This document shows positions 7,324-30,507 of a stretch of DNA of 64,000 bases, piece after piece. Position 1 is the first letter of the stretch, and every line of letters begins with the position of its first letter. A model generated the notes under the pieces. That model saw only the letters and a list, made by a program, of their open reading frames with translations. It did no database searches and was not told the origin of the DNA. Source of the DNA: an uncultured Clostridia bacterium (GTDB lineage Bacteria; Bacillota; Clostridia; TANB77; CAG-465); NCBI GenBank assembly GCA_944383015.1, contig CALWOC010000002.1:262383-326382 (forward strand), given 5' to 3'. A program made the position numbers and the translations under genes.

Positions 7324-7608
7324 ATGGTGTCAAAAGATTCTTTGATGAAGATTAGACAAGACGTTGAAAACTATATTGGTCAAGAAATATGTGTAAAGGC
7401 TAATGTAGGAAGAAACAAATGCATTGAAAGGAAGGGATATATCGATAGCACCTATACTAATTTGTTTGTGTTTAGAGATTCTGAAACAGATAGCAAATTA
7501 TCATATAGTTATTCAGACTTAGTTACAAATACTTTAGAACTAAGTTTACCAACTGGAGAGCCTATTACTAGGTATGATTTCTCCACACCAAAATATACAA
7601 GATTATAA
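7324..7608 (+). CDS. veg: Veg (DUF1021) protein
   Basis: Veg-like sequence (IRQDVENYIGQEICVKAN...GYIDSTYTNLFVF); internal ATG at 7324 preceded by RBS gagaggtga preferred over the ORF-track start. Confidence 0.55.
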   Translation: MVSKDSLMKIRQDVENYIGQEICVKANVGRNKCIERKGYIDSTYTNLFVFRDSETDSKLSYSYSDLVTNTLELSLPTGEPITRYDFSTPKYTRL

Positions 7609-12924: not shown

Positions 12925-12936
12925 TATATTGTTAGA

Positions 12937-13030
12937 TAAATATAATAAAACCCGCTATTTTTAATAAATAGCGGGTAAATTTTATATTTTTTAAATATCT
13001 TGAAAAGTTCCTTGAAATTCTATCTTTTAG
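12937..13030. repeat. attL: imperfect direct repeat copy including a duplicated rpsI terminator hairpin and 3'-end-like sequence
   Basis: Aligns with 30019-30109 at ~75-80% identity; conserved blocks taaatataataaaaccc, ctatttt, gcggg, gaaaagt.ccttg.aatt.atcttttag. Confidence 0.7.
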
Positions 13031-13961: not shown

Positions 13962-15536
13962 ATGATAAAAGATAATATGACACTTTTATTGTATTATGAT
14001 GAAACTACAACCTTAATTTATAATATGATAAATAATAGTGTTTTAGGAAAAATTGATAATGATAGTAGTTTGATTAGATATTTGTTAAATATAATGGAAC
14101 TACACAATGTAAGAGTAAATGAAAATGATTATTTAGTTCTAAGAAAATTAGATAATGTTGTAACTACTCTACAAAGAGTAATAATAGAATTTTATAGTGG
14201 GTATGATGTTAAATTAAAGAAATTATTGAATAAAGGTTATGAAGTAAATCACATTAATAAAGATAAATTAGATAATAGACTTTGTAACTTAGAATTAGTA
14301 TCACACTTAGATAATATAAAACATAGAGATAATAAACAATATACTGTGGTTTATTCTTCTAATGAGTTACTTAAACTACAACATATTGTAAAGATTAACC
14401 AACAATATAAGAAAGATACTATATATTTACAAAAGATGAATAAGTATATAATAGATAGTGTAATAAGAAAAGATAGTAATAAAAGTATAGATAAATGGTT
14501 TGGTTGTAGGTATTGTGATTATTTATTATTTAATAATGTTAAAACTCTAACTAAAAAAAATGCTTCTATAATTAGAGAGAGTAATAATAGAGTTACTTTT
14601 ACTAATGTAAAAAAATATACTAAAAAAAGTGCATTTTCTCCTACTAATATAGATAGAATAATATCTTCTTATGATAGATATATAGTACATAGAACTATAA
14701 TAAATAATATAGAAGTAATAAACAAACTAATTAGTCTAAAACAAAATAGTAATTTTAATCTACTCTTAGAAAAGATAGATTTTATATATATAATAAAAGA
14801 ACTAAAAAATAATTATCTACATACTCCTAATAATTACTTAATAATAGAAGATAATATACTACTTACTCTATCTATAAAAGATATATTTAGAGAAATTAGA
14901 AGTAAAAATAAAAAACTACTTATACTCTACTTACTAAATATATTCAAAAGATTAGATAGTGTAAAAAATAATACTAACTATTTTAAATATAAACAAAGAC
15001 CTACTACTCTAATTATTCCATATTTATTAAAAGAAGATTTTATAAATATAGACCTTATATCTAAGGACTTATTAAATTATTATAAAAATATAACTTACTC
15101 ACTACTTACAAGGAACACGGGTAACACTTCTTCTCAACTAATATATAGAAATAGTAATTTAGAGAATAAATATAAAAATAGAGATATTAAAACTATTGAA
15201 GATATATACACCATTTTATCTAATAACACTGATTTACAAAAGTATGGTTATATTACTATTAAAGATTTAGTTACTTCTCTAAGAGTTTTAAATGAAGAAA
15301 GAAAAAATAATGGACTATCTTACAATAATATTTTAAATGGTACTGAGAAGTTTGTAAGGAGACATCTTAATAAGGACACACAACTTATAAATGATTTATC
15401 TAAAATTGGTATAAAATATATTTCTCTTAATAATAAAACTATCTCCTCTATTCTATCTTATCAAAAAGAGAAAAAGACTTATTCTTTATACCTTAATAAA
15501 AAGGTTATTGTATTATCTAAACTATATAAAAAATAA
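13962..15536 (+). CDS. hypothetical 524-aa protein, extremely N/K/I/Y/L-rich
   Basis: A 1.5 kb stop-free ORF in very AT-rich DNA is unlikely by chance; RBS aaaggag; no recognisable motif. Confidence 0.5.
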   Translation: MIKDNMTLLLYYDETTTLIYNMINNSVLGKIDNDSSLIRYLLNIMELHNVRVNENDYLVLRKLDNVVTTLQRVIIEFYSGYDVKLKKLLNKGYEVNHINKDKLDNRLCNLELVSHLDNIKHRDNKQYTVVYSSNELLKLQHIVKINQQYKKDTIYLQKMNKYIIDSVIRKDSNKSIDKWFGCRYCDYLLFNNVKTLTKKNASIIRESNNRVTFTNVKKYTKKSAFSPTNIDRIISSYDRYIVHRTIINNIEVINKLISLKQNSNFNLLLEKIDFIYIIKELKNNYLHTPNNYLIIEDNILLTLSIKDIFREIRSKNKKLLILYLLNIFKRLDSVKNNTNYFKYKQRPTTLIIPYLLKEDFINIDLISKDLLNYYKNITYSLLTRNTGNTSSQLIYRNSNLENKYKNRDIKTIEDIYTILSNNTDLQKYGYITIKDLVTSLRVLNEERKNNGLSYNNILNGTEKFVRRHLNKDTQLINDLSKIGIKYISLNNKTISSILSYQKEKKTYSLYLNKKVIVLSKLYKK

Positions 15537-16827: not shown

Positions 16828-16894
16828 ATAAGTGTTACTCTTGTTACTTGTGATTTACAAACTAATTTTGTATAATATAGAAAAGGTGGTTTAA

Positions 16895-17584
16895 ATGGAA
16901 AAAGGAAATGAAAATAAAGGAAATGTATTATATGTATTAAATACATTAAAAAAATATAGTGATGATGAACACATATTAAGTAGTAATGAAATAAAAGAAT
17001 TGATAAAGAAAAATTATGATGTAAATATAGATAGTAGAACTATAAGAAGAAATATAAATTTACTTATAGAAAAGTTTGGTTATGATATATCTACATATAA
17101 TGATAATCGCAAAGGTTATTATTATATTAAAAATATAGATATAGACTTCACATTAGGAGAAATTATTATGATTATAAATCAAATAAAGTTAGCTAATGAT
17201 ATAAATGAAGAAACATCAAATCTTTTGTTAAATAAATTAGAAAAACAAATTAATATATTTGATAGAGAAAAACTAAAATCAAATATAGCAAAAATGAAAG
17301 AACAAAAAACAAAGAATTGGGAATTAGTAAATAGTTTAGAAATAGTTTCACAAGCAATAGAAGAAAAGAAAAAGATACAATTTATACATAATGGAAAGAA
17401 TATTATATACTCTCCACAATATATTGTGTATAGAAAATTTAAAGTACTTACACCTTTTAATTATATAGTTATAGGAATAAATAATACACTTAACAATAAT
17501 ATTGGAATTTTATTAACTAGTATGAAAAATATAAAAATTTTAGATGAAGAGTGTGAGTTTTTAGATGAAGAAAAAAACAAGTAA
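16895..17584 (+). CDS. wHTH-WYL domain transcriptional regulator (BrxR/CapW-like architecture, short form)
   Basis: N-terminal HTH_11-like (VLYVLNTLKKYSDDEHILSSNEIKELI...SRTIRRNINLLIEKFGYDI); C-terminal WYL-like beta-rich region (IQFIHNGKNIIYSPQYIVYRKF...NYIVIG...IGILLTSMKNIKIL). Confidence 0.5.
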   Translation: MEKGNENKGNVLYVLNTLKKYSDDEHILSSNEIKELIKKNYDVNIDSRTIRRNINLLIEKFGYDISTYNDNRKGYYYIKNIDIDFTLGEIIMIINQIKLANDINEETSNLLLNKLEKQINIFDREKLKSNIAKMKEQKTKNWELVNSLEIVSQAIEEKKKIQFIHNGKNIIYSPQYIVYRKFKVLTPFNYIVIGINNTLNNNIGILLTSMKNIKILDEECEFLDEEKNK

Positions 17585-17680
17585 TACATTTTTAGACCAA
17601 CGAAAAATTCATAGTATAAAATTCATATACAAAATAACTTCAAAATGATATACTCTAAATAAATAGTTTGGAGGTTCATT

Positions 17681-18058
17681 ATGGGGTTATTTTTGTTAGA
17701 TGTAGGAATTAAAAAGGAAAGTATATATAAAATGGAAATATTTGATAAAGAAAAGAAAGAAGTAGATATTATAAGAAAAGAATTTAACCTACCTACTTCA
17801 AAAGTATTGTTATATAAAGATGATGATATATTTTATGGTAAAGATAATGTTGAATATTTTACTACATATAAATTAGATAACTTAATAAAAGAACTAAAAA
17901 ACTTTAATAATAGTATAGTAATAATTAACCTATCTAAAATTAAAAACAATAATAGATTTAAGGAAAGAACAAACAATGAATTTTTTAGAATATTAGAGGG
18001 TATTAGTATTGTACTTAATATAAAATTTATTGTTTATGAAATAAAAAAGGAGAGATGA
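17681..18058 (+). CDS. hypothetical protein (WYL-regulator-adjacent)
   Basis: RBS ggagg 6 nt upstream of the ATG; translationally coupled to the next ORF. Confidence 0.4.
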   Translation: MGLFLLDVGIKKESIYKMEIFDKEKKEVDIIRKEFNLPTSKVLLYKDDDIFYGKDNVEYFTTYKLDNLIKELKNFNNSIVIINLSKIKNNNRFKERTNNEFFRILEGISIVLNIKFIVYEIKKER

Positions 18059-18405
18059 AAATTCAAGATATAGTGGTAATTCCATTAGGAGTATTTGGTA
18101 AAGAAATAATAAAAGATATAGTTTTAAATGATAATGTAAAAATTGTATATAGTGATGAACTTAAAGATTTAAACTATAATATACCTCCACTACTCTTATG
18201 TATTATTGGAGATATAAAAGAAAAAGTAGTAAAAGAATTTTTTAACACACATAGTGGTTTTTTCGCTATAAATATTGTTGGTATATTTAAGAAAGATAGT
18301 TATAATAAGGAATATGATTTTATAGATTACTTTTATGAGATAGATAATGAAAAAGTGTTTAAGATATTTTTTGATAACTTTATAAAATTAAATAATAACC
18401 ATTGA
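18055..18405 (+). CDS. hypothetical protein (WYL-regulator-adjacent)
   Basis: ATGA overlap with the upstream ORF; no family recognised. Confidence 0.4.
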   Translation: MKIQDIVVIPLGVFGKEIIKDIVLNDNVKIVYSDELKDLNYNIPPLLLCIIGDIKEKVVKEFFNTHSGFFAINIVGIFKKDSYNKEYDFIDYFYEIDNEKVFKIFFDNFIKLNNNH

Positions 18406-18522
18406 AATGAGGTTTTATTTAGAAGAACTTTCTATACTTAGTTATATAAATTTATATCTATTAGTAGAAAGTTAATTTAAGATATAAAGGAGAAAAAAGA
18501 AGCATACAAAAGTATTATTACA

Positions 18523-18891
18523 CTATTGTATGCTTTTTAATGCAATTAATATACCTTCTAATCTTAGCTTGTTATCATCACTTAAAGAATTATATTCTCT
18601 TAAAATATACTTTTCTTTTTCGCTTAAATCACTTTTAGAAGATAAAATAGATATTGGAGTTGGGTCATTTGTCAAATCTAAAAGATAGTCTGTGGAGCAA
18701 TGAAAATAATTAGCTAATTGTATTATAAACTCAATATTTGAAGTCCTAGTTCCAGACTCTAACCTAGATATAACTTCTTGATAAGTATTATTATCTTCAG
18801 CGACTTTTCTTTGTGAGTAATGATTATCTTCCCTAATTTTTTGTAAATTCTTTTTGGGTGAAATTTCTTTGTTTTTCTTTATTTTATCCAC
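18523..18891 (-). CDS. XRE-family (Cro/CI-type) HTH transcriptional regulator
   Basis: HTH_3 motif LQKIREDNHYSQRKVAEDNNTYQEVISRLESGTRTSNIEFIIQLANYF; likely GTG start at 18891 with RBS aaaaggag (the ORF-track N-terminus looks spurious). Confidence 0.7.
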   Translation of the reverse strand: MDKIKKNKEISPKKNLQKIREDNHYSQRKVAEDNNTYQEVISRLESGTRTSNIEFIIQLANYFHCSTDYLLDLTNDPTPISILSSKSDLSEKEKYILREYNSLSDDNKLRLEGILIALKSIQ

Positions 18892-18930
18892 TCTATCTAC
18901 TCCTTTTATTAAATTATAACAATAAAAGGG

Positions 18931-18979
18931 TTGTAAAAAAAGTCGAAAATTGGTATAATTAGTATGACATATTGTCATA
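18931..18979 (+). promoter_or_regulatory. sigma-A-type promoter (TTGTAA-17-TGnTATAAT) with overlapping palindromic operator TATGACA-N3-TGTCATA
   Basis: -35 at 18931-18936, -10 at 18954-18959, perfect 7-bp inverted arms at 18963-18979 between the -10 and the RBS; divergent from the XRE gene. Confidence 0.5.
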
Positions 18980-18999
18980 TAATATGAGGAGGTTTTTAT

Positions 19000-20046
19000 A
19001 TGGAAAATAACATATTCAAATATGCGACTAAGGAGCTTAGTCAAGATGCTTTTATTTGTTGGTTGGTAGAGTGGATTAATCACAAAGAAGAAAATTCAGA
19101 ATTGTATGAAGTATCAAAAAAGTTTTTAGATAAAATTATAGAAAAGTATAATAAGAAAAACACTAAAAGAAATTTAAAGGTCAATGATTATAATAATGTA
19201 AAAATATTAAAACAAGATAAAAATATAGATGTTTTGATAAGTTTTGAAATTGAAAATAATGAAACAATATACATTATTATTGAAGATAAAAAATTAACTT
19301 CGGAACATGATAATCAAATAAACAAATATAAAAGTAAATTAATTAATAAAGGAATAAAGGAAGAAAATATAATAACTACATATTATAAGATGTTTTATGA
19401 ACCAAATCAAATAGATGTAGATGTATTAATTGATAGAAAGTTTATGCTTGAAATAATGGAAAATTATTATATAAAAAATGATATATACATTGATTATTAC
19501 AATTATTTAAGTTTGATAGAATATAAGTGTAAAAACATCAAAAAGTTTCCATTGAAAGAAATTAATGAAAATAAATTTTTGCTATATGAATTACAAAAAA
19601 TATATTGTAGTCATAGTGTAAAAAAACAAATAGAAAAATGTGGTGTTGGTTGGTTTAGAGGTAGTTTACTTTATACGTGGTATATAAGAGAATTAGATAA
19701 AGATTACTTCTTAGATTATTTATATCTTGAAACAAAACTTAGATTAGATAGATATGAATTACAAATTAGAGGTCGCTTTGAGGATAAAGAAAATGGTAAG
19801 TTAAAATATAATGAAGATGAAAGAAATAAATTACAAGAAAAAATAGAAAAATATTTTTCAAATAATAGTAATATAAAATTTGAAAAATTTAATAAAAGAG
19901 AAGCTAATGAGTCAATGATTTTAGCTAAGGTTAAACTACATTTTAAGAAAGATGAAGAATATAAAGTTAGTGATTTATTAAATCTAATGGAAGAATTAGA
20001 AAGAGTATTAGATTTATTTATTGAAAATAAAGAATATAAAAATTAA
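19000..20046 (+). CDS. hypothetical protein with putative N-terminal PD-(D/E)xK nuclease motif
   Basis: NIDVLISFEIENNETIYIIIEDKK fits hhhD-x17-E-x-K; first gene of an XRE-controlled operon. Confidence 0.4.
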   Translation: MENNIFKYATKELSQDAFICWLVEWINHKEENSELYEVSKKFLDKIIEKYNKKNTKRNLKVNDYNNVKILKQDKNIDVLISFEIENNETIYIIIEDKKLTSEHDNQINKYKSKLINKGIKEENIITTYYKMFYEPNQIDVDVLIDRKFMLEIMENYYIKNDIYIDYYNYLSLIEYKCKNIKKFPLKEINENKFLLYELQKIYCSHSVKKQIEKCGVGWFRGSLLYTWYIRELDKDYFLDYLYLETKLRLDRYELQIRGRFEDKENGKLKYNEDERNKLQEKIEKYFSNNSNIKFEKFNKREANESMILAKVKLHFKKDEEYKVSDLLNLMEELERVLDLFIENKEYKN

Positions 20047-20054
20047 AAAGGAAT

Positions 20055-21146
20055 GTGATAAGTATGTATTGTGAAAAATGTGGAAATAAACTAGATGATG
20101 ATAGTAAATTCTGTGATAAATGTGGAACTGTTATAGAAACTACTGATAATATAAAGAAAAGTAAAGACAATGTTTTTAAAAAATTTATATTACCTTTAAT
20201 TTTAGTTACATTATTTATTATATTAATTTTTATAGGAGCAAATTTAATTTTAAATAAACATAATGAAAAATCAGAAGAATATAAACAAGAAATTAATGAA
20301 GAACTTGATAAAAAAGTTATAGCTACATATAATGGTGGAAAACTTACAGATGAAGAGTTTGAAATATATTATAAAATGTTTATAGATTATTTAAGAGATA
20401 AAAAATATAATGAAAGTGAAATACCAAAAATAGTAGTAAATAAAGCAATTATAGATAAATTAGTTTTAACTGAATCACACAAAAACAACATAAAAATCAC
20501 ACAAGAACAAGAAAAAGAACTAAATGAAACTTTTGAAAGTGAAGATTTTAAGAATTTGTGTGTTAATAATAACATTGATAATGAAAAATTAAAAGAACTA
20601 TATAGAAATGATTACATTATAACTAATTATATTGAAGAACAAGCTAAGAATTTGAGCGATAGTGAAGTTATAACATATTTAAAAAATAAGTATGGTAATG
20701 ATGTAGACTTATACCAATATACTACTCAAACAATAATGTTTTTAAATAATTCTGAATTTACAGCAGAGCAGAATGCTATATCAATGCTTAACTATATAAA
20801 ACAAGGAGCAGATTTTACAGAGATGGCTAAATTATATTCAGAAGATGAAGGAACAAGAGATAATGGTGGAATATATATATGTTATGATGATGAAAACACA
20901 GATGAAAATTATTTTAATGCTATAAAACTATTAACTCCAGGAGATGTGAATAAAGAAGTAGTTACAACTGGTAATGGTTATGCAGTAGTTAAGTTAGTAT
21001 CAAAAGTAGAAAATGGTAGAGCAAAAAATGAACTAGATAGGAAAAATATTATAAATGAAAGATTAGATAAATTATCTAGTGAATCTAATATAGTTATAAA
21101 TGATGAGGCACTAAATCAAGTAGTACAAGAATTAGATAATAAATAA
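20055..21146 (+). CDS. membrane protein: N-terminal zinc ribbon, one TM helix, C-terminal parvulin-type PPIase domain
   Basis: CEKCGNKLDDDSKFCDKCG; TM LPLILVTLFIILIFIGANLIL; parvulin-like ISMLNYIKQGADFTEMAKLYSEDEGTRDNGG...GNGYAVVKLV. Confidence 0.5.
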   Translation: MISMYCEKCGNKLDDDSKFCDKCGTVIETTDNIKKSKDNVFKKFILPLILVTLFIILIFIGANLILNKHNEKSEEYKQEINEELDKKVIATYNGGKLTDEEFEIYYKMFIDYLRDKKYNESEIPKIVVNKAIIDKLVLTESHKNNIKITQEQEKELNETFESEDFKNLCVNNNIDNEKLKELYRNDYIITNYIEEQAKNLSDSEVITYLKNKYGNDVDLYQYTTQTIMFLNNSEFTAEQNAISMLNYIKQGADFTEMAKLYSEDEGTRDNGGIYICYDDENTDENYFNAIKLLTPGDVNKEVVTTGNGYAVVKLVSKVENGRAKNELDRKNIINERLDKLSSESNIVINDEALNQVVQELDNK

Positions 21147-21160
21147 TATGAGGTGATTTT

Positions 21161-21634
21161 ATGTATTGTAAAAATTGTGGAAAAGAAATTAGTGAAGATA
21201 ACGTAGTGTGCAAATATTGTGGAAAAGATTTAAAAAGTAAAAATGTTAATGAAGAAACTATAAGTAAAAAGAAAAAATCAAATACTTTGGAAATGGTATT
21301 ATCTTTAATAACTATATTTGTAGGGATTTTTATAGCAGTATGTGTACAATCTTTTTACATATTCATATTTGCATTTATGGTGGTAATAATGGGGTTTGCA
21401 AGTATGACAATAGGAGATGCTAAAGGTATAAATGCAGGTTTTTATTGGGGTTGGCTATTTGGAATAATAGGGTTAATTGTAGTGTGTGGTCTACCAAATA
21501 GATTAGAAAATAAAAATATTGTTGTTAATATAAGTAAGTATGATGAATTAGAAAAATTACAATCATTAAAAGTAAAGGGAATATTAACTCAACAAGAATA
21601 TGAATTAGAAAAGCAAAAAATATTAGAGAACTAA
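21161..21634 (+). CDS. membrane protein: N-terminal zinc ribbon, TM helices, C-terminal SHOCT domain
   Basis: CKNCGKEISEDNVVCKYCG; hydrophobic core; C-terminal LEKLQSLKVKGILTQQEYELEKQKIL SHOCT-like. Confidence 0.5.
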   Translation: MYCKNCGKEISEDNVVCKYCGKDLKSKNVNEETISKKKKSNTLEMVLSLITIFVGIFIAVCVQSFYIFIFAFMVVIMGFASMTIGDAKGINAGFYWGWLFGIIGLIVVCGLPNRLENKNIVVNISKYDELEKLQSLKVKGILTQQEYELEKQKILEN

Positions 21635-21681: not shown

Positions 21682-21759
21682 TGACTAATTTGTCTAAAAG
21701 TGATATTCATATTTGTATTTTAAGACACTTTTATTATTAAGATATAAAATTATATTAAC

Positions 21760-22329
21760 TTATAAGCAAAAGTCATCATACATATTGTTGATTTCATCTT
21801 GTGATATACCTATATATCGAAGTGTGATACTAGGGCTACTATGATTAAATATTGTTTGCAACATAGCAACATCAGCATATTTTTTATAGTTGTGGAAACC
21901 GAATGTCTTTCTCATAGTGTGAGTTCCTATACTATCAGTGATACCAACCATTTTTGCTGCATCATTAAGAAATCTATATACTTGTGTGCGCGTAAGAGAT
22001 TGATTAGCTCCTTTCCTACTTTTAAAAATATACTCATATTGTTGCATTTGTTTAGTGTAATCTTCTAGTTCTTTTTTTAATTCGACATTAAATCTAAATG
22101 TCTTCTTTTTATTTGTTTTCTTTTCTATAATTGTAATGTCATCTCGCATAGTACCATTTTCATATCTAATATCACTTACTTTAAGCTTTATAATATCTGA
22201 TACCCTTATACCAATATTTATACCTACTTTGAAAATAAGATAATTTCTTTTGCCTTTTCCTTGTTCTAATAATACTTTTTTCATTTCTTCGATTTTGTTC
22301 AAATCTCTAATTGGTTCTACTAAATTCAT
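21760..22329 (-). CDS. small (189 aa) tyrosine recombinase lacking an arm-binding domain (FimB/FimE- or Xer-like size class)
   Basis: Catalytic R...HxxR...Y (GTHTMRKTFGFH ... LRYIGIS); the last 4 codons overlap repeat R3. Confidence 0.7.
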   Translation of the reverse strand: MNLVEPIRDLNKIEEMKKVLLEQGKGKRNYLIFKVGINIGIRVSDIIKLKVSDIRYENGTMRDDITIIEKKTNKKKTFRFNVELKKELEDYTKQMQQYEYIFKSRKGANQSLTRTQVYRFLNDAAKMVGITDSIGTHTMRKTFGFHNYKKYADVAMLQTIFNHSSPSITLRYIGISQDEINNMYDDFCL

Positions 22330-22582
22330 ACTACATACATCTCCTTAAATTTTTATACATTATAATACATTGAATGTAATTCGTACATATTTTTTATTAC
22401 ATTTACTAAAAGTTATTTTTATAAAATGCTTTCTAAGTATTGAAATATAAACAAATAACACATTTTCTTTGAATAAATCAGAATTTCTAATTTGATACAT
22501 TGGCGCTTATTTTTTTATAAAAAAATTATTGAATAGCTATAATATGTGATATGGTACAAAAAATAGGAATAGCTTATATAAA

Positions 22583-23752
22583 CTATTCCTTTTCCCATAA
22601 ATTTTTTAAATAATCAACACTATAATTATATTTTTGTTTTTTTGCTTTTATCTCCACACACATTTTTTTAAATTTCTTAATATCATTAGAATCTTTATTT
22701 GTTTTATTTATACTATTATATACAGATTTAAAATAGTATTTTACAGGTTCGTATTTATCTTTATTATTTTTCATACCTTTTTGCATACTTTCCAAAGTTC
22801 TATTATATAAGTTTTGTAGTTCATCTTGCTTAGTCTTTTGATAATTGACTTTTTTTCCACAAATGGTACTACAAGTTTTTTTCTTTTTGTCATTAGAAAT
22901 AAAATAATTATCACAAAATTCACATCTTTTTACTTGTGTTTTGTTTAAAATCATTTGTTCAATTTCAAAAATGCCTAGTTCTTTTATAGTTTTAAAATAT
23001 TTATTATAACTAATAGATACATTAGAGCTTTTTATTCTGTTTAGTAATTGCCTATCTGAAAGTCCAATAAAATTATCTTTTTCTTTAAAAACAAAAGTAT
23101 TATCAGAAACATTAATTTTATTATTTATAAATATCATATCCAGTAATTCTTGCTCAGTCATATATGTTAATATAATATGTAAGTTACTTAAATCATTTTT
23201 ACATTGGAAGTAAGCTAGCCTTTTGTTTAATGATAAATCATTTAGATTTGTGTTATTGACATCAAGTATATAATAAACTGCTTTCTTCAATGTTTTTTGA
23301 CAAGCTATTAAATATTCTATCAGATATTTACCATAGCTAGAAATTACGTTTTTAATCGCCTCGTTCATATTAGGACTAGTATTAGTAATTGTTTTGTTAA
23401 ACTCATCTATATCATGTTCTCTAACTTTCCTTAAATTTTCTTCTAGTTCATTAATATGCAAATCAACATATTTGCAACTACTCTTTATTGTTCTTATAAA
23501 CTTAACATATTTGCATAAGTAACTATATGCATCTAAACAGTTAGGATAACCAGTAATATCACTATTTGCATAATCAATATTATAAAATTTTATTTTATTT
23601 TTTGAAACAAATTTTGCAGTAACTTCTTCGACTTTTGTAATATAGTCTGTTAAATCTGCATTTAAAAAATCAATAAGTGCTGTACCATATTTCACTTTGC
23701 TTATAATTAAATCATTTGTATAGGTTTTGTTATCTATTATATTTATATACAT
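22583..23752 (-). CDS. hypothetical protein with C-terminal Cys4 zinc-ribbon (CEFC...CSTIC)
   Basis: ORF; terminator hairpin overlaps the stop codon; separate transcription unit upstream of the small recombinase. Confidence 0.45.
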   Translation of the reverse strand: MYINIIDNKTYTNDLIISKVKYGTALIDFLNADLTDYITKVEEVTAKFVSKNKIKFYNIDYANSDITGYPNCLDAYSYLCKYVKFIRTIKSSCKYVDLHINELEENLRKVREHDIDEFNKTITNTSPNMNEAIKNVISSYGKYLIEYLIACQKTLKKAVYYILDVNNTNLNDLSLNKRLAYFQCKNDLSNLHIILTYMTEQELLDMIFINNKINVSDNTFVFKEKDNFIGLSDRQLLNRIKSSNVSISYNKYFKTIKELGIFEIEQMILNKTQVKRCEFCDNYFISNDKKKKTCSTICGKKVNYQKTKQDELQNLYNRTLESMQKGMKNNKDKYEPVKYYFKSVYNSINKTNKDSNDIKKFKKMCVEIKAKKQKYNYSVDYLKNLWEKE

Positions 23753-24013
23753 CTTTTTTCCTCCTAAATTGCGTAGTAAAAAAATTCACTTTTTTCAATA
23801 TTTTTTACTACTCCTACACTTTAACAAATTCCAAGAAAATGCGTTGACATCAAGGTTTTTATCGTTTATAATTGTTTTATCACGTGATAATGCGTAGTAA
23901 AAATATAAAAATATTATACTACGAAATAATAAAAGTTACAATAGCATTTAAGCTACTTGTAAAATTGTACATTGAAAAGCGCATATTGTAACAAAATGAA
24001 AGGAGTGATAGGC

Positions 24014-24568
24014 ATGTATAAGCCTATAATTGAAAAGTTTCAGCAGATAAAAGGTGAAGCAGTACAAAAAAATCAAGATGTATTATTATTAGTAAAAACC
24101 GATGAGGGGTACGCAAGAATTACTGAAAATATTGCAGTATTCTTAGAGAAAAAAGACATGGGTCCTAACGAACTTCCAAGAATAAAATTGAAGTTCGCTA
24201 ATGGGCAAATAGTCATAGTCTATGGATATAGTGATGACACTATAACTCCAGGTACTATTGTTAGTTCCTTAGGCTACTTCACAAAGAATTGTGATGTACT
24301 CCAATATTCTAATAGGTGTGGTATGACAAGAGTCTATAACACGGCTAAAGAAATTGGAAGAGTTAAAGTAGAGTATCCATACAGACTAGGTTTTTGGGAA
24401 CTTACAACTCCACAAGAATCAACCCTATATCAACCCTCAACTGAGTTTAAACAACTTGAAGATAATATCTACTATTTTATAGGAGATGTTTCAACACTTC
24501 AAGAAGTACCAAAACTTGAAGAGGGAGAAATTGATGTTACTAACTGTGGCGACTACTTTTATGCTTAA
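24014..24568 (+). CDS. hypothetical protein
   Basis: RBS aaaggag 8 nt upstream of the ATG at 24014. Confidence 0.4.
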   Translation: MYKPIIEKFQQIKGEAVQKNQDVLLLVKTDEGYARITENIAVFLEKKDMGPNELPRIKLKFANGQIVIVYGYSDDTITPGTIVSSLGYFTKNCDVLQYSNRCGMTRVYNTAKEIGRVKVEYPYRLGFWELTTPQESTLYQPSTEFKQLEDNIYYFIGDVSTLQEVPKLEEGEIDVTNCGDYFYA

Positions 24569-24647
24569 TAGTAACAAGGTCATATTAAAGGAAAATATAT
24601 TAAAGCTATGTTTTCCTTTAGTATATAAATGTAAGGAGGAATTTAAA

Positions 24648-25544
24648 ATGGAAAATGATAATATGTTGTTAGAACATAAGCAAAATGAGATACTTGAAGA
24701 TATAAGAAAACTTGTGAAAAAATATAAGTCAGAACTTAAACATATAGATTTTAATATAAACAGTATTGAAAATTTGTATGATACTTTTAATAATAAACTG
24801 TTTAATCTAGTATATGAGAAAATATATAATGGAGAGAATTTTGACTATGTTAGAGATAATTATAAATATCGTATTTATAATCAAGAAAGTATTTTAAAGT
24901 CAATGCCAAATGATATTAAGACTAATGTATCTAAATCTATTATAGATGAAATATTAAGATTTTATAATAGAATAATAGATTCGTATTACTGTGTTAATAC
25001 TACTAAATACTTAAATGAAATAAATTATGCTATTTTTAATACAGAAGAGGAATATTATAATAAAGATTATAAATTTTATAGTCCATTTTTCAGAGATTTT
25101 GCTATTGAAACTTTAATTTGTAGATTAGGAAGTTTAGGCAATATATCTGATTATGAACCTATTTATAAACTAAACTCAAACGATAAAACGTTTATATGTA
25201 AAATTTTAAATGATAGGCAGATTATGGCAAGCCTAATAATAGAGGACAACGTACATCTTTACTGTATTTTTTTAGATAGTATTGTATGTATAGGATGTAT
25301 GAAATGTAAATCTATGACTGAAGATGAGTTTCTTAATGGATTACCAAACCTTGTAGATGAATTTCAAAAACATAGTTGTTTTGACCATATTGAAATATTA
25401 GATGCTATAAGAAGTTATTATTATTATATTTTTGATAGTAAGGCAGATATAAATATAAATAGTCAAACTCTACTATCATTATTAGATTCAATTAATATAA
25501 CTAATTACTTATTAAGATATGCTTTTAGTGTATATGATGAGTAA
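24648..25544 (+). CDS. hypothetical Cys-rich protein
   Basis: RBS aaggagg before the ATG at 24648 (the ORF-track start at 24486 overlaps the previous gene). Confidence 0.4.
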   Translation: MENDNMLLEHKQNEILEDIRKLVKKYKSELKHIDFNINSIENLYDTFNNKLFNLVYEKIYNGENFDYVRDNYKYRIYNQESILKSMPNDIKTNVSKSIIDEILRFYNRIIDSYYCVNTTKYLNEINYAIFNTEEEYYNKDYKFYSPFFRDFAIETLICRLGSLGNISDYEPIYKLNSNDKTFICKILNDRQIMASLIIEDNVHLYCIFLDSIVCIGCMKCKSMTEDEFLNGLPNLVDEFQKHSCFDHIEILDAIRSYYYYIFDSKADININSQTLLSLLDSINITNYLLRYAFSVYDE

Positions 25545-25746
25545 AATAGCTTAAAAAATGTGTACAAACTGATGTTTGTTTTATATAATAAAAAATAGAA
25601 AGAATTTTATAGATTAGGCCCCTAAAAAATTCTTTCAACTCAAAAAAATTATGGAAATGCATTTGTTTTTACATTTCTATTATATTATATGATAAGAATT
25701 GCGAAAAATCAAGTGTATTTCCTTTTTAATAAAAGGAGGTAGAAAA

Positions 25747-28521
25747 GTGAGTATTGATGAACTAAAAATTGTTCTAAGTAACAAAGAAGTTGTAGAACAC
25801 TATTTAGGACCAGGCGTAGTTAGCGGAAACAATATAAAGTACAGCAGTCCTTTCAGAGATGGAGATTCAGAACCATCTCTTAGCGTATCAGATGAGCATA
25901 TAAAAGATTTTGGTGGCGATTTTTCTGGAGACTTTATAAATTTTGTTGCAAGATATAAAAATGTTTCTGAAAAACAAGCTATTGATATTATTAAAAAAGA
26001 TTTTCAAATAGATGATAATGTTACATATAGTAAATCAATATCTAAAAGAAAGTCAAATCAAAATAATTCAGAATCTAAGAATGCTATTAATGTACGTTTA
26101 GCAGAAAAAACAAGCACAATAGCGTGTATGTTTGATGAAGTTGAATTTTCTGAAAAGCCAAAAGGTTATGAAGTCGGAGGTATAAAAAATAGGATTAATG
26201 AAAATCAGTTTAAGGGCTACACATTAGAAGAAATAAAACAAAATATTGTTTTAGGAAAAACAACTATACCAGCAGGCATTAAAGGTAATGCTAAAGAAAA
26301 TTTTAAAGGACAACAACTATATATGATAGATATAGATAATGCTATTGAAGAAAATGGAAAGAAAGTAAATTTTACTATTGATGATGAAAGACATATCACA
26401 ATAGAGAAGATTATTGAGCATTGCAAACAAATAAATCTATTACCTACATTTGCATATTATAGTTTCAGTCATAGCGAAAAACAACATAAGATGAGGTTAG
26501 TATATATATTAAATGAAGTGATAACAGATTATGAAATAGCGAAAGGCTTTATTAATTATTTATTAGACAAGCTAAGTATATTCTATCCTGATTCTAAACC
26601 AACAAATTTGGCAAGTATGTTTTTTGGTGGTAAATCAATAGCTTATGAAAGTGATATTTTTTATAAGTTAGATATAGTAAAAGTAAAAGAAAAAGAAGTT
26701 AAAAGGAAAGCTAATTCTAATATTCCTAATGATTATCAAAAGGACATTGAATTATTAGAAAATAGCAATTATGTTTTTGCAGAATATGGCATATATGAAA
26801 AGAAAGAGAAAATATCTAATTTTGTACCAATTATAACAAAAGAGATTATATATGATAATGGAAATGGAGAGAAGTCAGCAGTATATAAAATTAAAGCAGT
26901 TTTGAGTAATGGGGATATATTAAATGAAGTGGAAGTAAAAATTGAAGATTTTACATCTATGAAGTGGCTGATAAATGAAACTTGGAAGATGCTACCAATA
27001 GTAAATGCAGGAGTAAGTAATAAGGATAAACTTCGTGAAGTTACACAAATAGTATCTAAAAATATGCAGAAAGAAGTTGTATATACACATACTGGTTTTA
27101 TAAAACAAAATGATAAGTATGTATATTTGTACAACAATGGTAATATTGGTGGAGATGATACTATAAAAGTTAATCTTGATGATAGTTTAGTTAGATATGA
27201 ATTTACAAATCAAGAATATGATTTGAAAGAGTGTCTACAACTAGTATATAGCATTTTAGATATAGCAGATAAAAAGATAACTTTACCATTAGTTGCTTTT
27301 ACATATCTAGCTCCTTTGGTATCACTTTTAGATGAATTAGGAATTGTACCAGATTTTTTAATGGCAGTTGTAGGAGTAAGTGGTAGTAGAAAGAGTTCAT
27401 TATCAGCTTTATTAAATTGTCATTATGGTAGATTTGATAAAGACAGTTTTGTATGTAGTTGTAAAGATACTATAAATAGTATTGAGCTTAGAAGTAATTT
27501 ATTAGCAGATACTTTGGTGGTATTAGATGATTACTATCCTAGTACGGAAACAAATGAAGCTAAAAAGATGAAAAACACTCTTGAAAAAGTTATAGCTATA
27601 TACGGAGATCGTTCAGCTAGAGGTAGATTAAATGTAGATGTTACTTTAAGGAAAGCATATAAAGCTAAGGGCTTGTGTTTAGTAACTGGCGAGTCTTTTC
27701 CAGATGTTTCAGAAAGCAGATTAGCAAGATGTTTTATTATTGACTTAAAAAAGGATAGTATAGATTTAGATAAACTAACTATACTTCAAAGAAATAAAGA
27801 TAAATTATCTTATGCAATGAAACAATATATTAAAGTTCTAATAGCAAACATTGAGAAGATTAAAAATAATGCTAAAGATAAATTTGAAAAATATAGAAAT
27901 AATATTACAAATAATTTATTGCATGGAAGAACGGCCGAAATAATATGTTTCTTACAAATATCTTTTGAATTATTTATTAACTTTCTAATATCTTATGAAA
28001 TAATAAGAGAACAAGACAAAGAGAAACTGCTTAAAGAAAGTTGGGATATTTTAAATTTTGTAGCAAATGAACAAACTTTAAAAATACAAGATAATAAACC
28101 TATAAGTATGTTTTTTAATGCTATAAGTCAACTTGAAAATACCGGAAAAATATATATAGTTAGAAACTGGCAAGAGTCTTATTTAACAGATAATAAAAAT
28201 AAAACTCTTATAGGTTTTGTAGATGAAACAAAAGATGAGTACAATAACTATTATTATTTTTTCCCAGAAACTGTACTAAATGAAGTATCTAAGTTTTATT
28301 CACAACAAGGTATAAAATTTCCTATAAATAAAACCGGACTTCAAAAACATTTAGCAGATGAGGGATATTTGAAAACTGGTAGTGATAGAGCAACTATTAG
28401 AAAGAAAATGCCAGGTCCTACTTCAAGAGATAAAACAGAAATAGTATGGGCAGTAAAAAAAGATAAAGTTCCATATTTAGAATTACAACCTTATGGAACT
28501 AATCCACCTAATTGTGATTAA
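25747..28521 (+). CDS. primase-helicase-like replication protein (degenerate CHC2-like N-terminus, AEP/prim-pol DIDN motif, P-loop region)
   Basis: GTG start after RBS aaaggagg; N-terminus resembles a DnaG zinc finger with the Cys residues replaced; LYMIDIDNA acidic motif; GVSGSRKSS P-loop-like with LVVLDDYY Walker-B-like. Confidence 0.45.
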   Translation: MSIDELKIVLSNKEVVEHYLGPGVVSGNNIKYSSPFRDGDSEPSLSVSDEHIKDFGGDFSGDFINFVARYKNVSEKQAIDIIKKDFQIDDNVTYSKSISKRKSNQNNSESKNAINVRLAEKTSTIACMFDEVEFSEKPKGYEVGGIKNRINENQFKGYTLEEIKQNIVLGKTTIPAGIKGNAKENFKGQQLYMIDIDNAIEENGKKVNFTIDDERHITIEKIIEHCKQINLLPTFAYYSFSHSEKQHKMRLVYILNEVITDYEIAKGFINYLLDKLSIFYPDSKPTNLASMFFGGKSIAYESDIFYKLDIVKVKEKEVKRKANSNIPNDYQKDIELLENSNYVFAEYGIYEKKEKISNFVPIITKEIIYDNGNGEKSAVYKIKAVLSNGDILNEVEVKIEDFTSMKWLINETWKMLPIVNAGVSNKDKLREVTQIVSKNMQKEVVYTHTGFIKQNDKYVYLYNNGNIGGDDTIKVNLDDSLVRYEFTNQEYDLKECLQLVYSILDIADKKITLPLVAFTYLAPLVSLLDELGIVPDFLMAVVGVSGSRKSSLSALLNCHYGRFDKDSFVCSCKDTINSIELRSNLLADTLVVLDDYYPSTETNEAKKMKNTLEKVIAIYGDRSARGRLNVDVTLRKAYKAKGLCLVTGESFPDVSESRLARCFIIDLKKDSIDLDKLTILQRNKDKLSYAMKQYIKVLIANIEKIKNNAKDKFEKYRNNITNNLLHGRTAEIICFLQISFELFINFLISYEIIREQDKEKLLKESWDILNFVANEQTLKIQDNKPISMFFNAISQLENTGKIYIVRNWQESYLTDNKNKTLIGFVDETKDEYNNYYYFFPETVLNEVSKFYSQQGIKFPINKTGLQKHLADEGYLKTGSDRATIRKKMPGPTSRDKTEIVWAVKKDKVPYLELQPYGTNPPNCD

Positions 28522-28674
28522 TGTACATTTTATTTGTACATTGATACAAATGTATGTAATACAACAAATGTTTATATATCAACCATTTGAAGATATATGT
28601 ACAAAATGTACAAAAATAAATTAGATATATATACAATATATAAATAATAAAAAAAAAAAGAAAGGAATGTTTTT

Positions 28675-28866
28675 ATGAAAAATAATATTAGTATAAAAGA
28701 AGCAGCTGAAAAAATGGGAAAATCAAAAGAATTTGTTAGAATTGGACTACAAAGAAATCTCTTACCTTTTGGTATGGCACAGAAAATGAGTTCAAGATAC
28801 ACATATTATATATCTCCTATAAAGTTTTATGAATATATTGGTAAACTTGAAAGGAGTCAACAATAA
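28675..28866 (+). CDS. excisionase (Xis)-like small HTH protein
   Basis: 63 aa, ISIKEAAEKMGKSKEFVRIGLQRNLLPF HTH; immediately upstream of int and overlapping it (ATGA). Confidence 0.55.
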   Translation: MKNNISIKEAAEKMGKSKEFVRIGLQRNLLPFGMAQKMSSRYTYYISPIKFYEYIGKLERSQQ

Positions 28867-29974: not shown

Positions 29975-30018
29975 TGAGCAAATTTTATATGTTTTCTAGC
30001 CTTTTTATAAAGTTTTAA

Positions 30019-30109
30019 TAAATATAATAAAACCCACTATTTTCAACGAATAGCGGGTTTTTTCTAACTTTTTTAACTTTACCGAAAAGTCCTTGTAATT
30101 ATCTTTTAG
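30019..30109. repeat. attR: direct repeat copy overlapping the rpsI terminator and last codons
   Basis: Aligns with 12937-13030; covers the rpsI stop codon (30099-30101) and the bidirectional terminator hairpin cccactatttt-caacg-aatagcggg + T6. Confidence 0.7.
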
Positions 30110-30494: not shown

Positions 30495-30507
30495 TTTTTA
30501 ATTCCTC

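What the first reader, a model, noticed from the sequence alone, without database searches (positions are those of the whole stretch)
16895..18405. WYL-domain regulator followed by two translationally coupled unknown small genes
The 229-aa wHTH-WYL protein has the architecture of BrxR/CapW-type regulators, which often gate defence or mobile-element modules. It is followed by two coupled ORFs (125 and 116 aa; ATGA overlap) with no recognisable domains. The second has alternating hydrophobic beta-strand-like segments (IVVIPLG, LLLCIIGD, FAINIVG) suggestive of a Rossmann-like fold. Their position inside the element next to a WYL regulator makes them candidate regulated effectors.
Basis: inference. 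Interest (0 to 1): 0.55.

Follow-up and report, generated by a model that had tools for sequence, protein, structure and literature searches.

The report
Degenerate WYL regulator, helicase-less replication operon
The three genes are real, but they are most likely the leftover of a mobile element's helicase operon: a WYL-type DNA-binding protein that has lost its sensor parts, plus two narrowly distributed small proteins that became neighbours only because the DnaB-like helicase gene between them is missing here. This is an ordinary decaying island, not a new regulator-effector system.

Summary
All three ORFs, their ribosome-binding sites and the ATGA overlap are confirmed.

**Regulator (229 aa).** It misses every Pfam threshold. 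It is nevertheless 40-50% identical to ~325-aa PF13280 WYL proteins. Its AlphaFold model (pLDDT 83) matches DriD, BrxR, PafBC and CapW. It has a wHTH and a WYL-like barrel but no WCX domain. The family's R-x-D-R sensor-loop motif reads L-L-T-S.

**ORF2 (125 aa).** It has only six sequence clusters among 1.84 billion representatives. It always follows this regulator, even where the regulator is cut down to a 101-aa wHTH.

**ORF3 (116 aa).** It is found next to ORF2 only in this species.
- In the closest other lineage a 446-aa DnaB-like helicase lies between ORF2 and ORF3.
- A second lineage carries a 261-aa RecA-like gene there and only a stub of ORF3.
- Two further lineages have no ORF3.
- The same microhomology flanks the helicase gene on both sides, so the ATGA junction is a deletion or cassette-exchange scar.

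**Setting.** A ~17-kb integrative island bounded by att-like repeats next to rpsI.

**Best reading (moderate confidence).** This is an autoregulated helicase/replication operon of a decaying element. The "regulated defence effectors" idea is not supported. The fold of ORF3 is unresolved.

The parts
12930..13010 (.). Left copy of a ~75-nt imperfect direct repeat (att-like), marking the left end of the island
   Evidence: About 82% identical to 30012-30092, terminator hairpin included.
16834..16848 (+). GTTACTCTTGTTACT direct repeat; candidate operator overlapping the -35 region of the regulator's promoter
   Evidence: The only exact match in the 64-kb window. GTTACTnnnGTTACTTGT is retained in L009 although the flanks diverge (A8). 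Its function is inferred.
16848..16876 (+). Sigma-70-like promoter (TTGTGA-17-TATAAT) upstream of the regulator
   Evidence: 10 of 12 consensus matches. This is a consensus match only.
16895..17584 (+). 229-aa wHTH + degenerate WYL protein without a WCX domain. wHTH = residues 8-77 (nt 16916-17125); helical linker = residues 87-130; WYL-like helix plus 5-strand barrel = residues 142-219 (nt 17318-17551).
   Evidence: 40-50% identity to ~325-aa PF13280 proteins. Pfam WYL maps to residues 146-218 of full-length relatives. AlphaFold pLDDT 83. Foldseek matches DriD, BrxR, PafBC and CapW at E 3e-7 to 5e-5. The family's R206/D208/R209 are L/T/S here.
17585..17680 (+). Regulator-ORF2 intergenic region with a promoter-like site (17626-17654, TATACA-17-TATACT preceded by TG). 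It is more conserved than the flanking genes.
   Evidence: 84% identity to L009 against 73% for the surrounding coding DNA. Promoter scan.
17681..18058 (+). ORF2, 125 aa, basic (pI 9.1), no known domain. It is the conserved partner of the wHTH regulator. In relatives it is translationally coupled to a DnaB-like helicase gene.
   Evidence: 47-51% identical homologues follow the regulator in L009 and L015. Only 6 clusters in 1.84 billion representatives. A helicase gene follows directly in L027, L022 and L024-L026.
18038..18061 (+). ORF2/ORF3 junction (GAAATAAAAAAGGAGAGATGAAAA). This is the scar where the helicase gene is missing.
   Evidence: It resembles both the ORF2/helicase junction (L027 ~7358-7381) and the helicase/ORF3 junction (L027 8714-8737).
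18055..18405 (+). ORF3, 116 aa, acidic (pI 5.1), no known domain, fold unresolved. In L027/L022 it lies downstream of the helicase.
   Evidence: Only 5 clusters at 88% identity or more. An intact 116-codon frame with ATA in place of ATG in L027/L022, about 92% nt identity, dN/dS 0.38. A 38-codon stub in L024. AlphaFold pLDDT 53.7.
18497..18538 (.). Hairpin flanked by A and T runs; probable bidirectional terminator between ORF3 and the convergent HTH_3 gene
   Evidence: Minimum free energy -16.6 kcal/mol, z-score -5.2, 0 of 200 shuffles fold as well.
18523..18891 (-). 122-aa cI/Cro-type HTH_3 repressor (CapH-like in PADLOC). It is convergent with the operon and divergent from the cargo genes.
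   Evidence: Pfam HTH_19/HTH_3; PADLOC capH E 4e-8. The 122-aa gene call comes from the related loci. Conserved in every element variant.
19000..20046 (+). 348-aa PD-(D/E)XK-like cargo protein (PDDEXK_4, PADLOC candidate PDC-S26)
   Evidence: Pfam E 8e-4, below the family cut-off. PADLOC PDC-S26 E 7e-10. A related 438-aa protein lies directly upstream of the short WYL homologue in L010.
30012..30092 (.). Right copy of the att-like direct repeat, overlapping the rpsI terminator; right end of the island
   Evidence: Integrase at 28866-29921. rpsI/rplM at 30099-30942.

Best explanation
The three genes are what remains of an operon in the replication/maintenance region of a ~17-kb integrative element inserted next to rpsI.

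**Regulator.** Gene 1 descends from wHTH-WYL-WCX regulators. It keeps the DNA-binding wHTH and a WYL-like barrel. It has lost the WCX domain and the arginines of the beta4/beta5 loop. It probably acts as a ligand-insensitive, autoregulatory DNA-binding protein for the operon. The candidate operator is GTTACTnnnGTTACT, lying over its own promoter. This step is inferred.

**ORF2.** It is the regulator's constant partner. In fuller copies of the element it is translationally coupled to a DnaB-type helicase. Its most likely role is therefore a helicase-associated factor, such as a loader or adaptor. It sits in the same position and has the same size as phage SPP1 G39P upstream of G40P. This too is inferred, and there is no sequence similarity to G39P.

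**ORF3.** It normally lies downstream of the helicase gene and has no assignable function.

**In this window.** The helicase gene is missing. Recombination between the near-identical ribosome-binding-site junctions on either side of it joined ORF2 to ORF3. That event also gave ORF3 an ATG start and produced the ATGA overlap. The module here is thus a helicase-less, probably non-replicative remnant that persists under weak purifying selection.
For: **Regulator**
- Homology to PF13280 proteins.
- The model has a wHTH plus a five-strand barrel, and Foldseek matches DriD, BrxR, PafBC and CapW.
- No WCX domain, and the R-x-D-R motif is lost. In contrast, 60 of 64 complete metagenome relatives keep the motif and 63 of 64 are 320-359 aa long.
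- Those arginines and the WCX crevice are needed for ssDNA sensing in CapW and PafBC (PMC11662680; PMC6789036).

**Contents of the slot after ORF2**
- L027: ORF2, 3 nt, a 446-aa DnaB-like helicase, then an ORF3-like frame. The helicase matches PDB DnaB at E 3e-25 and SPP1 G40P (3bgw) at E 1e-13.
- L022: the same layout with a frameshifted helicase.
- L024-L026: ORF2 overlaps a 261-aa RecA-like gene, and only a stub of ORF3 remains.
- L010: a short WYL homologue is followed directly by RecA-like and DnaB_C genes.
- The window aligns with L027 on both sides of the helicase gene, with an overlapping microhomology at the junction.

**ORF2 goes with the regulator**
- This holds in all five lineages, including the 101-aa wHTH-only version in L015.

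**Element context**
- RepA_N initiator, HNH_3, HTH_17, a CHC2 primase-like 940-aa protein, two tyrosine recombinases and att-like repeats.
Against: - No sequence or structural evidence assigns any biochemical function to ORF2 or ORF3.
- ORF2 stays intact in three lineages that lack the helicase (window, L009, L015). A dedicated loader would be expected to decay there, unless it acts on the host helicase.
- Deletion and insertion/cassette exchange cannot be told apart from the junctions alone.
- The regulator's wider family sits next to PD-(D/E)XK nucleases more often (20 of 48 loci) than next to DnaB_C-like genes (6 of 33). A nuclease gene also lies 1.4 kb downstream here.
- Operator and promoter assignments are consensus matches only.
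- The dN/dS values rest on about 30 substitutions per gene.
Confidence: 0.45

Rival explanations
1. Defence-regulator reading, close to the first reader's. The WYL-type protein represses a defence module of the island. The effectors are either ORF2/ORF3 or, more plausibly, the PDDEXK_4 (PDC-S26-like) nuclease at 19000-20046.
For: - Fold-level kinship with BrxR and CapW.
- PD-(D/E)XK nucleases (DUF2779, PDDEXK_4) lie upstream of family members in 20 of 48 loci, and directly adjacent in 8.
- In L010 a PDDEXK_4 gene directly precedes the short homologue.
- The window's PDDEXK_4 protein hits the PADLOC candidate PDC-S26.
- The regulator-ORF2-ORF3-HTH_3-PDDEXK_4 block is kept at 95-100% identity in islands that have lost HNH_3 and HTH_17.
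Against: - The sensor features are gone (no WCX, no R-x-D-R), so there would be no ssDNA-type de-repression.
- The PDDEXK_4 gene lies beyond a strong terminator and has its own divergent cI/CapH-like repressor.
- ORF2 and ORF3 have no PADLOC hit.
- L009 and L015 keep the regulator and ORF2 but carry no PDDEXK_4 gene.
Confidence: 0.2
2. Addiction (toxin-antitoxin-like) pair. The wHTH protein acts as an autorepressing antitoxin and ORF2 as a small toxin. This would explain why the pair is retained in decaying islands.
For: - The gene order is DNA-binding protein, then a small basic protein.
- The pair survives while neighbouring genes are lost: in L001, and in L015, where the regulator is cut down to its wHTH with a 21-nt spacer.
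Against: - ORF2 matches no toxin family in Pfam, NCBIfam or PADLOC.
- A 97-nt intergenic region with its own promoter-like site separates the genes here.
- ORF2 is truncated or chimeric in some strains (P0140, P0142) with nothing to suggest this is lethal.
- Coupling to a helicase gene is not a toxin-antitoxin feature.
Confidence: 0.1
3. No current function. ORF2 and ORF3 are drifting leftovers of a dead element, and the regulator is a decaying pseudo-regulator.
For: - The helicase gene has been inactivated independently several times: deleted here, frameshifted in L022, truncated in L024.
- The regulator shrinks progressively: 325 aa, then 229 aa, then 101 aa.
- ORF3 has a non-canonical ATA start in L027.
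- Distribution is very narrow.
Against: - Full-length frames are kept at 47-63% protein identity across lineages.
- dN/dS is 0.2-0.4, not about 1.
- Good ribosome-binding sites are present.
- The exact ORF3 protein is found on 529 contigs.
Confidence: 0.2

Closest known systems
wHTH-WYL-WCX transcription factors (BrxR, CapW, DriD, PafBC; class A of Mueller et al. 2019)
   Same: - N-terminal winged helix, helical linker and an Sm-like WYL barrel.
- Foldseek probability 1.0 over about 230 aligned columns.
- 40-50% sequence identity to PF13280 proteins.
- Encoded in a mobile or variable island.
   Different: - No WCX domain. WCX is the dimerisation module and forms half of the ssDNA crevice.
- The two conserved beta4/beta5-loop arginines are replaced (L206, S209).
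- The beta1/beta2 hairpin is shortened and 8 residues are inserted before the WYL-motif strand.
- It falls below Pfam's WYL threshold.
Class B HTH-WYL proteins without WCX (about 15% of WYL proteins, mostly proteobacterial; PMC6789036)
   Same: Two-domain HTH + WYL architecture.
   Different: - This protein is a recent truncation of a Firmicutes class A lineage. Its nearest relatives are all about 325 aa with a WCX domain.
- Its ligand-site motif has degenerated.
Phage SPP1 replication module G38P-G39P-G40P (origin binder, 126-aa helicase loader, DnaB-like helicase)
   Same: - In the fuller element copies the gene order and sizes match: a DNA-binding protein, a 125-aa protein, then a ~446-aa DnaB-type helicase translationally coupled to it.
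- The helicase matches G40P (3bgw) at E 1e-13.
   Different: - ORF2 has no detectable similarity to G39P or to any other loader.
- The helicase carries a second RecA-like domain in place of the DnaB N-terminal domain.
- In this window the helicase is absent.
- The analogy comes from my own knowledge of SPP1 and was not tested.

Membership tests
wHTH-WYL-WCX regulators (BrxR/CapW/DriD/PafBC type) | [quoted passage not shown] | tested here: met
   The AlphaFold model has three helices plus a wing at residues 8-77 with pLDDT above 90. Foldseek aligns the full length to BrxR, DriD and CapW. There is no Pfam HTH_11 hit.
wHTH-WYL-WCX regulators (BrxR/CapW/DriD/PafBC type) | Central WYL domain (Sm-like five-strand barrel after a helix) | tested here: met
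   - Helix 142-156 plus strands 159-219 in the model.
- The isolated DriD C-domain (7tzv) aligns over about 100 columns at rmsd 3.4-3.9.
- This region aligns to the PF13280 region (residues 146-218) of full-length relatives.
- The Pfam WYL HMM itself does not score.
wHTH-WYL-WCX regulators (BrxR/CapW/DriD/PafBC type) | C-terminal WCX (ferredoxin-like) dimerisation domain | tested here: not met
   The protein ends 10 residues after the barrel. Relatives continue for about 100 aa more. ORF2 is not a detached WCX domain (hhalign probability 0.2%).
wHTH-WYL-WCX regulators (BrxR/CapW/DriD/PafBC type) | Conserved ligand-contact residues (beta4/beta5-loop arginines; ssDNA pocket) | tested here: not met
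   The family's R206-x-D208-R209 reads L-L-T-S here and is also lost in P0003 and P0007. It is kept in 60 of 64 complete metagenome relatives. The role of these residues is taken from PMC11662680 and PMC6789036. The S-P of strand beta2 is retained.
wHTH-WYL-WCX regulators (BrxR/CapW/DriD/PafBC type) | Binds its own or a neighbouring promoter and responds to ssDNA or DNA damage | not testable with these tools
   Only a candidate operator (16834-16848) and promoter-like sites are available.
Class B HTH-WYL (no WCX) | HTH plus WYL domains only | tested here: met
   The class is defined in PMC6789036.
Replicative helicase loader (G39P / lambda P / DnaC-like role) for ORF2 | Gene directly upstream of, and coupled to, a DnaB-family helicase gene | tested here: inconclusive
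   Met in the relatives L027/L028, L022 and L024-L026, with a 3-nt spacer or a 4-nt overlap. Not met in the window, L009 or L015, where no helicase gene follows.
Replicative helicase loader (G39P / lambda P / DnaC-like role) for ORF2 | Sequence or structural similarity to a known loader family | tested here: not met
   No hit in Pfam, PHROGs (function-annotated families), NCBIfam or PDB sequences.
Type II toxin-antitoxin pair (regulator/ORF2 or ORF2/ORF3) | Toxin or antitoxin belongs to a recognised family; tight two-gene operon conserved as a unit | tested here: not met
   No toxin or antitoxin family hit. ORF2/ORF3 are not conserved as a unit. The regulator and ORF2 are conserved together but are separated by 97 nt carrying a promoter-like site.
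Rossmann-like / three-layer alpha-beta fold for ORF3 | Confident beta-alpha-beta model with structural neighbours | tested here: inconclusive
   AlphaFold pLDDT 53.7 from 6 near-identical sequences. The secondary structure alternates strand and helix, but no Foldseek match is better than E 0.2.

The most novel reading that the evidence does not exclude
A PD-(D/E)XK nuclease, a WYL regulator and DnaB_C-only (RecA-like) ATPases, often one inactive and one active copy, may form a recurrent and undescribed DNA-surveillance or defence module in gut Clostridia. The window would then hold a decayed, mobile-element-borne copy. ORF2 and ORF3 would be lineage-specific subunits, and the WYL protein would have been recruited as a ligand-blind scaffold. 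Evidence not excluding this:
- L010 (nuclease, short WYL homologue, two RecA-like genes).
- L073, L081, L091 and L105 (DUF2779 nuclease, WYL, DnaB_C-like genes, together with GmrSD and GIY-YIG genes).
- Family neighbourhood counts of 20 of 48 loci with a nuclease and 6 of 33 with a DnaB_C-like gene.
Probability: 0.1. Interest if true: 0.6.

Novelty: new variant of a known kind. Interest (0 to 1): 0.3.

Why it matters
- It shows that a protein with a WYL fold need not be a ligand-gated switch. This lineage lost the WCX domain and the sensor arginines, and in one relative the whole WYL domain, while keeping its wHTH and its small partner gene. Annotating such proteins as BrxR/CapW-like defence regulators would mislead.
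- It gives a worked example of how an ATGA-coupled pair of unknown genes can arise by clean loss of an intervening gene. Overlap alone is therefore weak evidence of functional pairing.
- ORF2 is a tiny orphan family tied to a wHTH protein and a DnaB-type helicase. If it proves to be a helicase loader or adaptor, it would add a new family to a functionally important but sequence-diverse class.

Tried and rejected
**Hypotheses tested and dropped**
- **ORF2 as a detached WCX domain of the truncated regulator.** hhalign of the ORF2 profile against the family profile gives probability 0.2%. Rejected.
- **ORF3 as a fragment of the DnaB-like helicase or of the 261/289-aa RecA-like proteins.** No significant BLASTP or phmmer match. 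DNA alignment shows ORF3 is a separate frame downstream of the helicase. Rejected.
- **ORF3 related to the FtsZ homologue in the same chromosomal slot of L010.** No phmmer signal. Rejected.
- **ORF3 homologue among L009's downstream genes.** None.
- **Full-length relatives' neighbours (L030, L021) related to ORF2, ORF3 or the RecA-like proteins.** They are not.

**Searches that found nothing**
- Megablast of the island against phage and plasmid collections.
- IMG/VR scans for ORF2, ORF3 and the regulator family.
- JGI metagenome scan for ORF2.
- One GTDB species representative carries ORF2, an uncultured Clostridia MAG.
- Rfam scan of 12-31 kb: nothing above noise.
- tRNA scan: none, so this is not a tRNA-linked island.
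- Profile search of the regulator family against PDB sequences: only marginal WYL hits (E about 0.25), and through the WCX part.

**Structure work**
- AlphaFold of ORF3 gave low confidence, and the Foldseek matches are meaningless.

**Repeats**
- No convincing inverted repeats at the ends of the inverted recombinase segment.
Full report
**1. Observation**

Each is preceded by a good Shine-Dalgarno sequence. ORF2's TGA stop overlaps ORF3's ATG start as ATGA. A promoter-like site (TTGTGA-17-TATAAT) precedes the regulator. A second one (TATACA-17-TATACT with an upstream TG) lies in the 97-nt gap before ORF2. A strong hairpin at 18497-18538 (-16.6 kcal/mol, z -5.2), flanked by A and T runs, closes the unit against the convergent HTH_3 gene. 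The window has about 25% G+C.

**2. The regulator**

Sequence evidence:
- Pfam gives no WYL or HTH_11 hit. PADLOC's WYL model hits weakly (E 1.2e-5, residues 43-166).
- A database search finds 192 relatives. The non-trivial ones are almost all 320-335 aa proteins carrying PF13280 (WYL), at 38-52% identity.
- In those relatives Pfam places WYL at residues 146-218. That region aligns with residues ~146-218 of the window protein, which then ends after about 10 more residues.
- The ~100-aa WCX domain is therefore absent.

Structure evidence:
- An AlphaFold model built on 104 sequences has pLDDT 83. It shows a winged helix (residues 8-77), a helical linker, a helix (142-156) and five strands (159-219).
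- Foldseek returns DriD, BrxR, PafBC and CapW as the top 26 hits (E 3e-7 to 5e-5, probability 1.0).
- The isolated DriD C-domain aligns over about 100 columns at rmsd 3.4-3.9.
The fold is there.

Loss of the sensor features:
- The family's nearly invariant R206-x-D208-R209 at the beta4/beta5 loop reads L-L-T-S in the window protein. It is also lost in the other short homologues, P0003 and P0007.
- Of 64 complete relatives from a metagenome scan, 63 are 320-359 aa long and 60 keep R-x-D-R-[IMLV].
- In PafBC the two arginines of this loop are essential (PMC6789036).
- In CapW the ssDNA sits in a crevice formed by the WYL top face and the WCX domains. It contacts conserved Ser and Arg residues, and R200A abolishes the response (PMC11662680).
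- I therefore infer that this protein cannot sense ssDNA the way its relatives do.
- HTH-WYL proteins without WCX are a known class, class B, about 15% of WYL proteins (PMC6789036). This one is a recent truncation of a class A lineage.
- In locus L015 the homologue is cut further, to a 101-aa wHTH only.

**3. ORF2**

- It has no hit in Pfam, NCBIfam, PADLOC or PDB sequences. One weak PHROG of unknown function appears.
- The word-indexed search found only close relatives at 84-97% identity.
- An exhaustive HMMER search of 1.84 billion cluster representatives found six clusters in all. Two are full-length diverged homologues, P0150 and P0151.
- Both diverged homologues lie directly downstream of the regulator's homologue. 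In L009 the regulator is 63% and ORF2 47% identical. In L015 the regulator is the wHTH-only form and ORF2 is 51% identical.
- The regulator-ORF2 spacer is better conserved between the window and L009 (84%) than the flanking coding DNA (73%).
- ORF2 is therefore a real gene and the constant partner of the wHTH protein.
- It is not a detached WCX domain (hhalign probability 0.2%).

**4. ORF3 and the slot after ORF2**

ORF3 has five database clusters, all at 88% identity or more. The exact window sequence occurs on 529 contigs.

The space between ORF2 and the convergent HTH_3 gene is variable:

| Loci | Contents after ORF2 |
|---|---|
| Window, L001-L008, L014, L031 (one species) | ORF3 only |
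| L027/L028 | 3 nt, then a 446-aa protein of two RecA-like domains. Its C-terminal half matches replicative DnaB helicases (PDB E 3e-25; SPP1 G40P E 1e-13). In L027 this is followed by an intact 116-codon ORF3-like frame, about 92% identical in DNA, beginning ATA instead of ATG |
| L022 | As L027, but the helicase is frameshifted (76 + 358 aa) |
| L024-L026 | ORF2 overlaps by 4 nt a 261-aa RecA-like protein with a degenerate Walker A motif. Only the last 38 codons of ORF3 survive |
| L009 | A DUF1810 fragment and an unrelated 139-aa ORF |
| L015 | Nothing |

Two further points bear on this slot:
- A more distant short WYL homologue (P0007, 42% identity) occupies the same chromosomal site in another species (L010). 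It is followed directly by a 289-aa degenerate RecA-like protein and a 204-aa DnaB_C protein.
- The window aligns with L027 up to 18061 on the left and from 18038 on the right. The 24-nt overlap reflects near-identical ribosome-binding-site junctions (AAAAGGAGAnATnAAAA) at both ends of the helicase gene.

Recombination between those junctions would remove exactly the helicase gene. It would also supply ORF3 with the ATG and create the ATGA overlap. Insertion or cassette exchange in the other direction cannot be excluded. I prefer loss because helicase-type genes follow the WYL homologue in two deeply separated lineages.

ORF3's AlphaFold model is poor (pLDDT 53.7). It has no structural neighbours, so the Rossmann idea stays open.

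dN/dS against L027 is 0.21 for the regulator, 0.32 for ORF2 and 0.38 for ORF3. This is weak evidence for constraint.

**5. Setting**

- The genes lie in a ~17-kb island between a HAD-hydrolase gene and rpsI/rplM. The island is bounded by a ~75-nt imperfect direct repeat that includes the rpsI terminator (12930-13010 and 30012-30092).
- The island backbone recurs in L009, L015, L022, L024 and L027:
  - RepA_N (present in some copies, absent here);
  - a 524-aa HNH_3 protein, an HTH_17 protein, DUF3846 and a 77-aa ORF;
  - the regulator, ORF2 and the variable slot;
  - a cI/CapH-like HTH_3 repressor on the opposite strand;
  - cargo genes, then a 189-aa tyrosine recombinase and a 389-398-aa protein;
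  - and a terminal integrase, preceded in the window and L014 by a CHC2 primase-like 940-aa protein.
- Here the cargo is a PDDEXK_4 / PDC-S26-like protein plus zinc-ribbon membrane proteins.
- L001-L003 have additionally lost HNH_3 and HTH_17.
- The element family is absent from the phage, plasmid and IMG/VR collections.
- The host is an uncultured spore-forming Clostridia MAG lineage.

**6. Mechanism**

Shown:
- the anatomy of the three genes;
- the domain losses in the regulator;
- the linkage of the regulator with ORF2;
- the presence of a DnaB-type helicase between ORF2 and ORF3 in fuller copies;
- the junction microhomology.

Inferred:
- The regulator is a ligand-insensitive autoregulator. 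The candidate operator GTTACTnnnGTTACT at 16834-16848 is unique in the window and kept in L009.
- ORF2 works with the helicase as a loader or adaptor. This rests on position and size only, by analogy with SPP1 G39P/G40P from my own knowledge.
- In this window the module is a non-replicative remnant.

I put about 0.45 on this package. The rivals and my weights are:
- a defence regulator controlling the PDDEXK_4 cargo or the small genes (0.2);
- an addiction pair (0.1);
- functionless drift (0.2).

**7. Wider family**

- In 79 metagenome loci the full-length relatives most often follow a PD-(D/E)XK nuclease (DUF2779 or PDDEXK_4). This holds for 20 of 48 loci with enough upstream flank.
- DnaB_C-only ATPases lie within 5 kb downstream in 6 of 33 loci.
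- GmrSD, GIY-YIG and AAA+ genes occur nearby.
- This leaves a low-probability but more novel reading: a nuclease + WYL + RecA-like ATPase module.

**8. Verdict**

This is a new variant of a known kind. It is a degenerate, WCX-less WYL-family protein together with two orphan genes. The pairing of those two genes is a by-product of helicase loss in a decaying integrative element. Interest is modest (0.3).

Noticed in passing
window 21687-22455: A ~0.77-kb segment carrying the 189-aa tyrosine recombinase gene (21760-22329, - strand) and its upstream region is inverted relative to L009, L015, L022 and L027. The flanks are collinear. L014 shares the window's orientation. This may be a self-inverting recombinase cassette. 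No clear terminal inverted repeats were found.
   Followed up: partly
window 12930-13010 and 30012-30092: A ~75-nt imperfect direct repeat containing the rpsI terminator hairpin brackets a ~17-kb island. The HAD-hydrolase to rpsI slot holds different islands in related genomes: about 6 kb in L001, and a different set of genes in L010.
   Followed up: partly
window 18523-20046: A cI/CapH-like HTH_3 repressor is transcribed divergently from a 348-aa PDDEXK_4 protein. That protein matches the PADLOC candidate single-gene system PDC-S26 (E 7e-10). It is a more plausible defence cargo than ORF2 or ORF3.
   Followed up: partly
window 22583-29921: The right half of the island carries a 389-aa protein (- strand), 198- and 352-aa proteins without domains, a 940-aa protein with a DnaG-type CHC2 zinc finger (primase-like), and a 351-aa integrase next to rpsI.
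   Followed up: no
window 13962-15536: A 524-aa protein has an HNH_3 motif near its N-terminus. It is conserved at 64% identity in L009 and L015 and is part of the element backbone. Its role is unknown. In L001-L003 it has been deleted together with HTH_17, leaving a hybrid 76-aa ORF.
   Followed up: partly
L027 7382-8722: The element's DnaB-like helicase has two RecA-like domains, both with Walker A motifs. The N-terminal one replaces the usual DnaB N-terminal domain. Other loci carry a split version: a degenerate RecA-like protein plus a DnaB_C protein (L010, L105).
   Followed up: partly
L010 5297-6424: A complete FtsZ homologue (Tubulin + FtsZ_C domains) sits in the same variable slot of a related species, upstream of PDDEXK_4 and the short WYL homologue.
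   Followed up: no
L017-L020 and about 20 further metagenome loci: Full-length relatives of the regulator commonly lie directly downstream of a ~500-aa DUF2779 nuclease. In one lineage this is beside rpoB and a cas4-cas1-cas2 set. Another subgroup is preceded by a conserved 59-aa ORF. L092 has a DnaB_C-like gene followed by a DNA polymerase III alpha fragment.
   Followed up: partly
window 20055-21634: Two zinc-ribbon membrane proteins lie among the island cargo. One has a PpiC-type rotamase domain. The other has a C-terminal SHOCT domain.
   Followed up: no
P0140, P0142, P0152 (database proteins): Some strains carry chimeric ORF2 genes. The N-terminal 59-87 residues are fused to unrelated sequence, for example a DUF3298-like tail. 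This shows recombination breakpoints inside ORF2.
   Followed up: no
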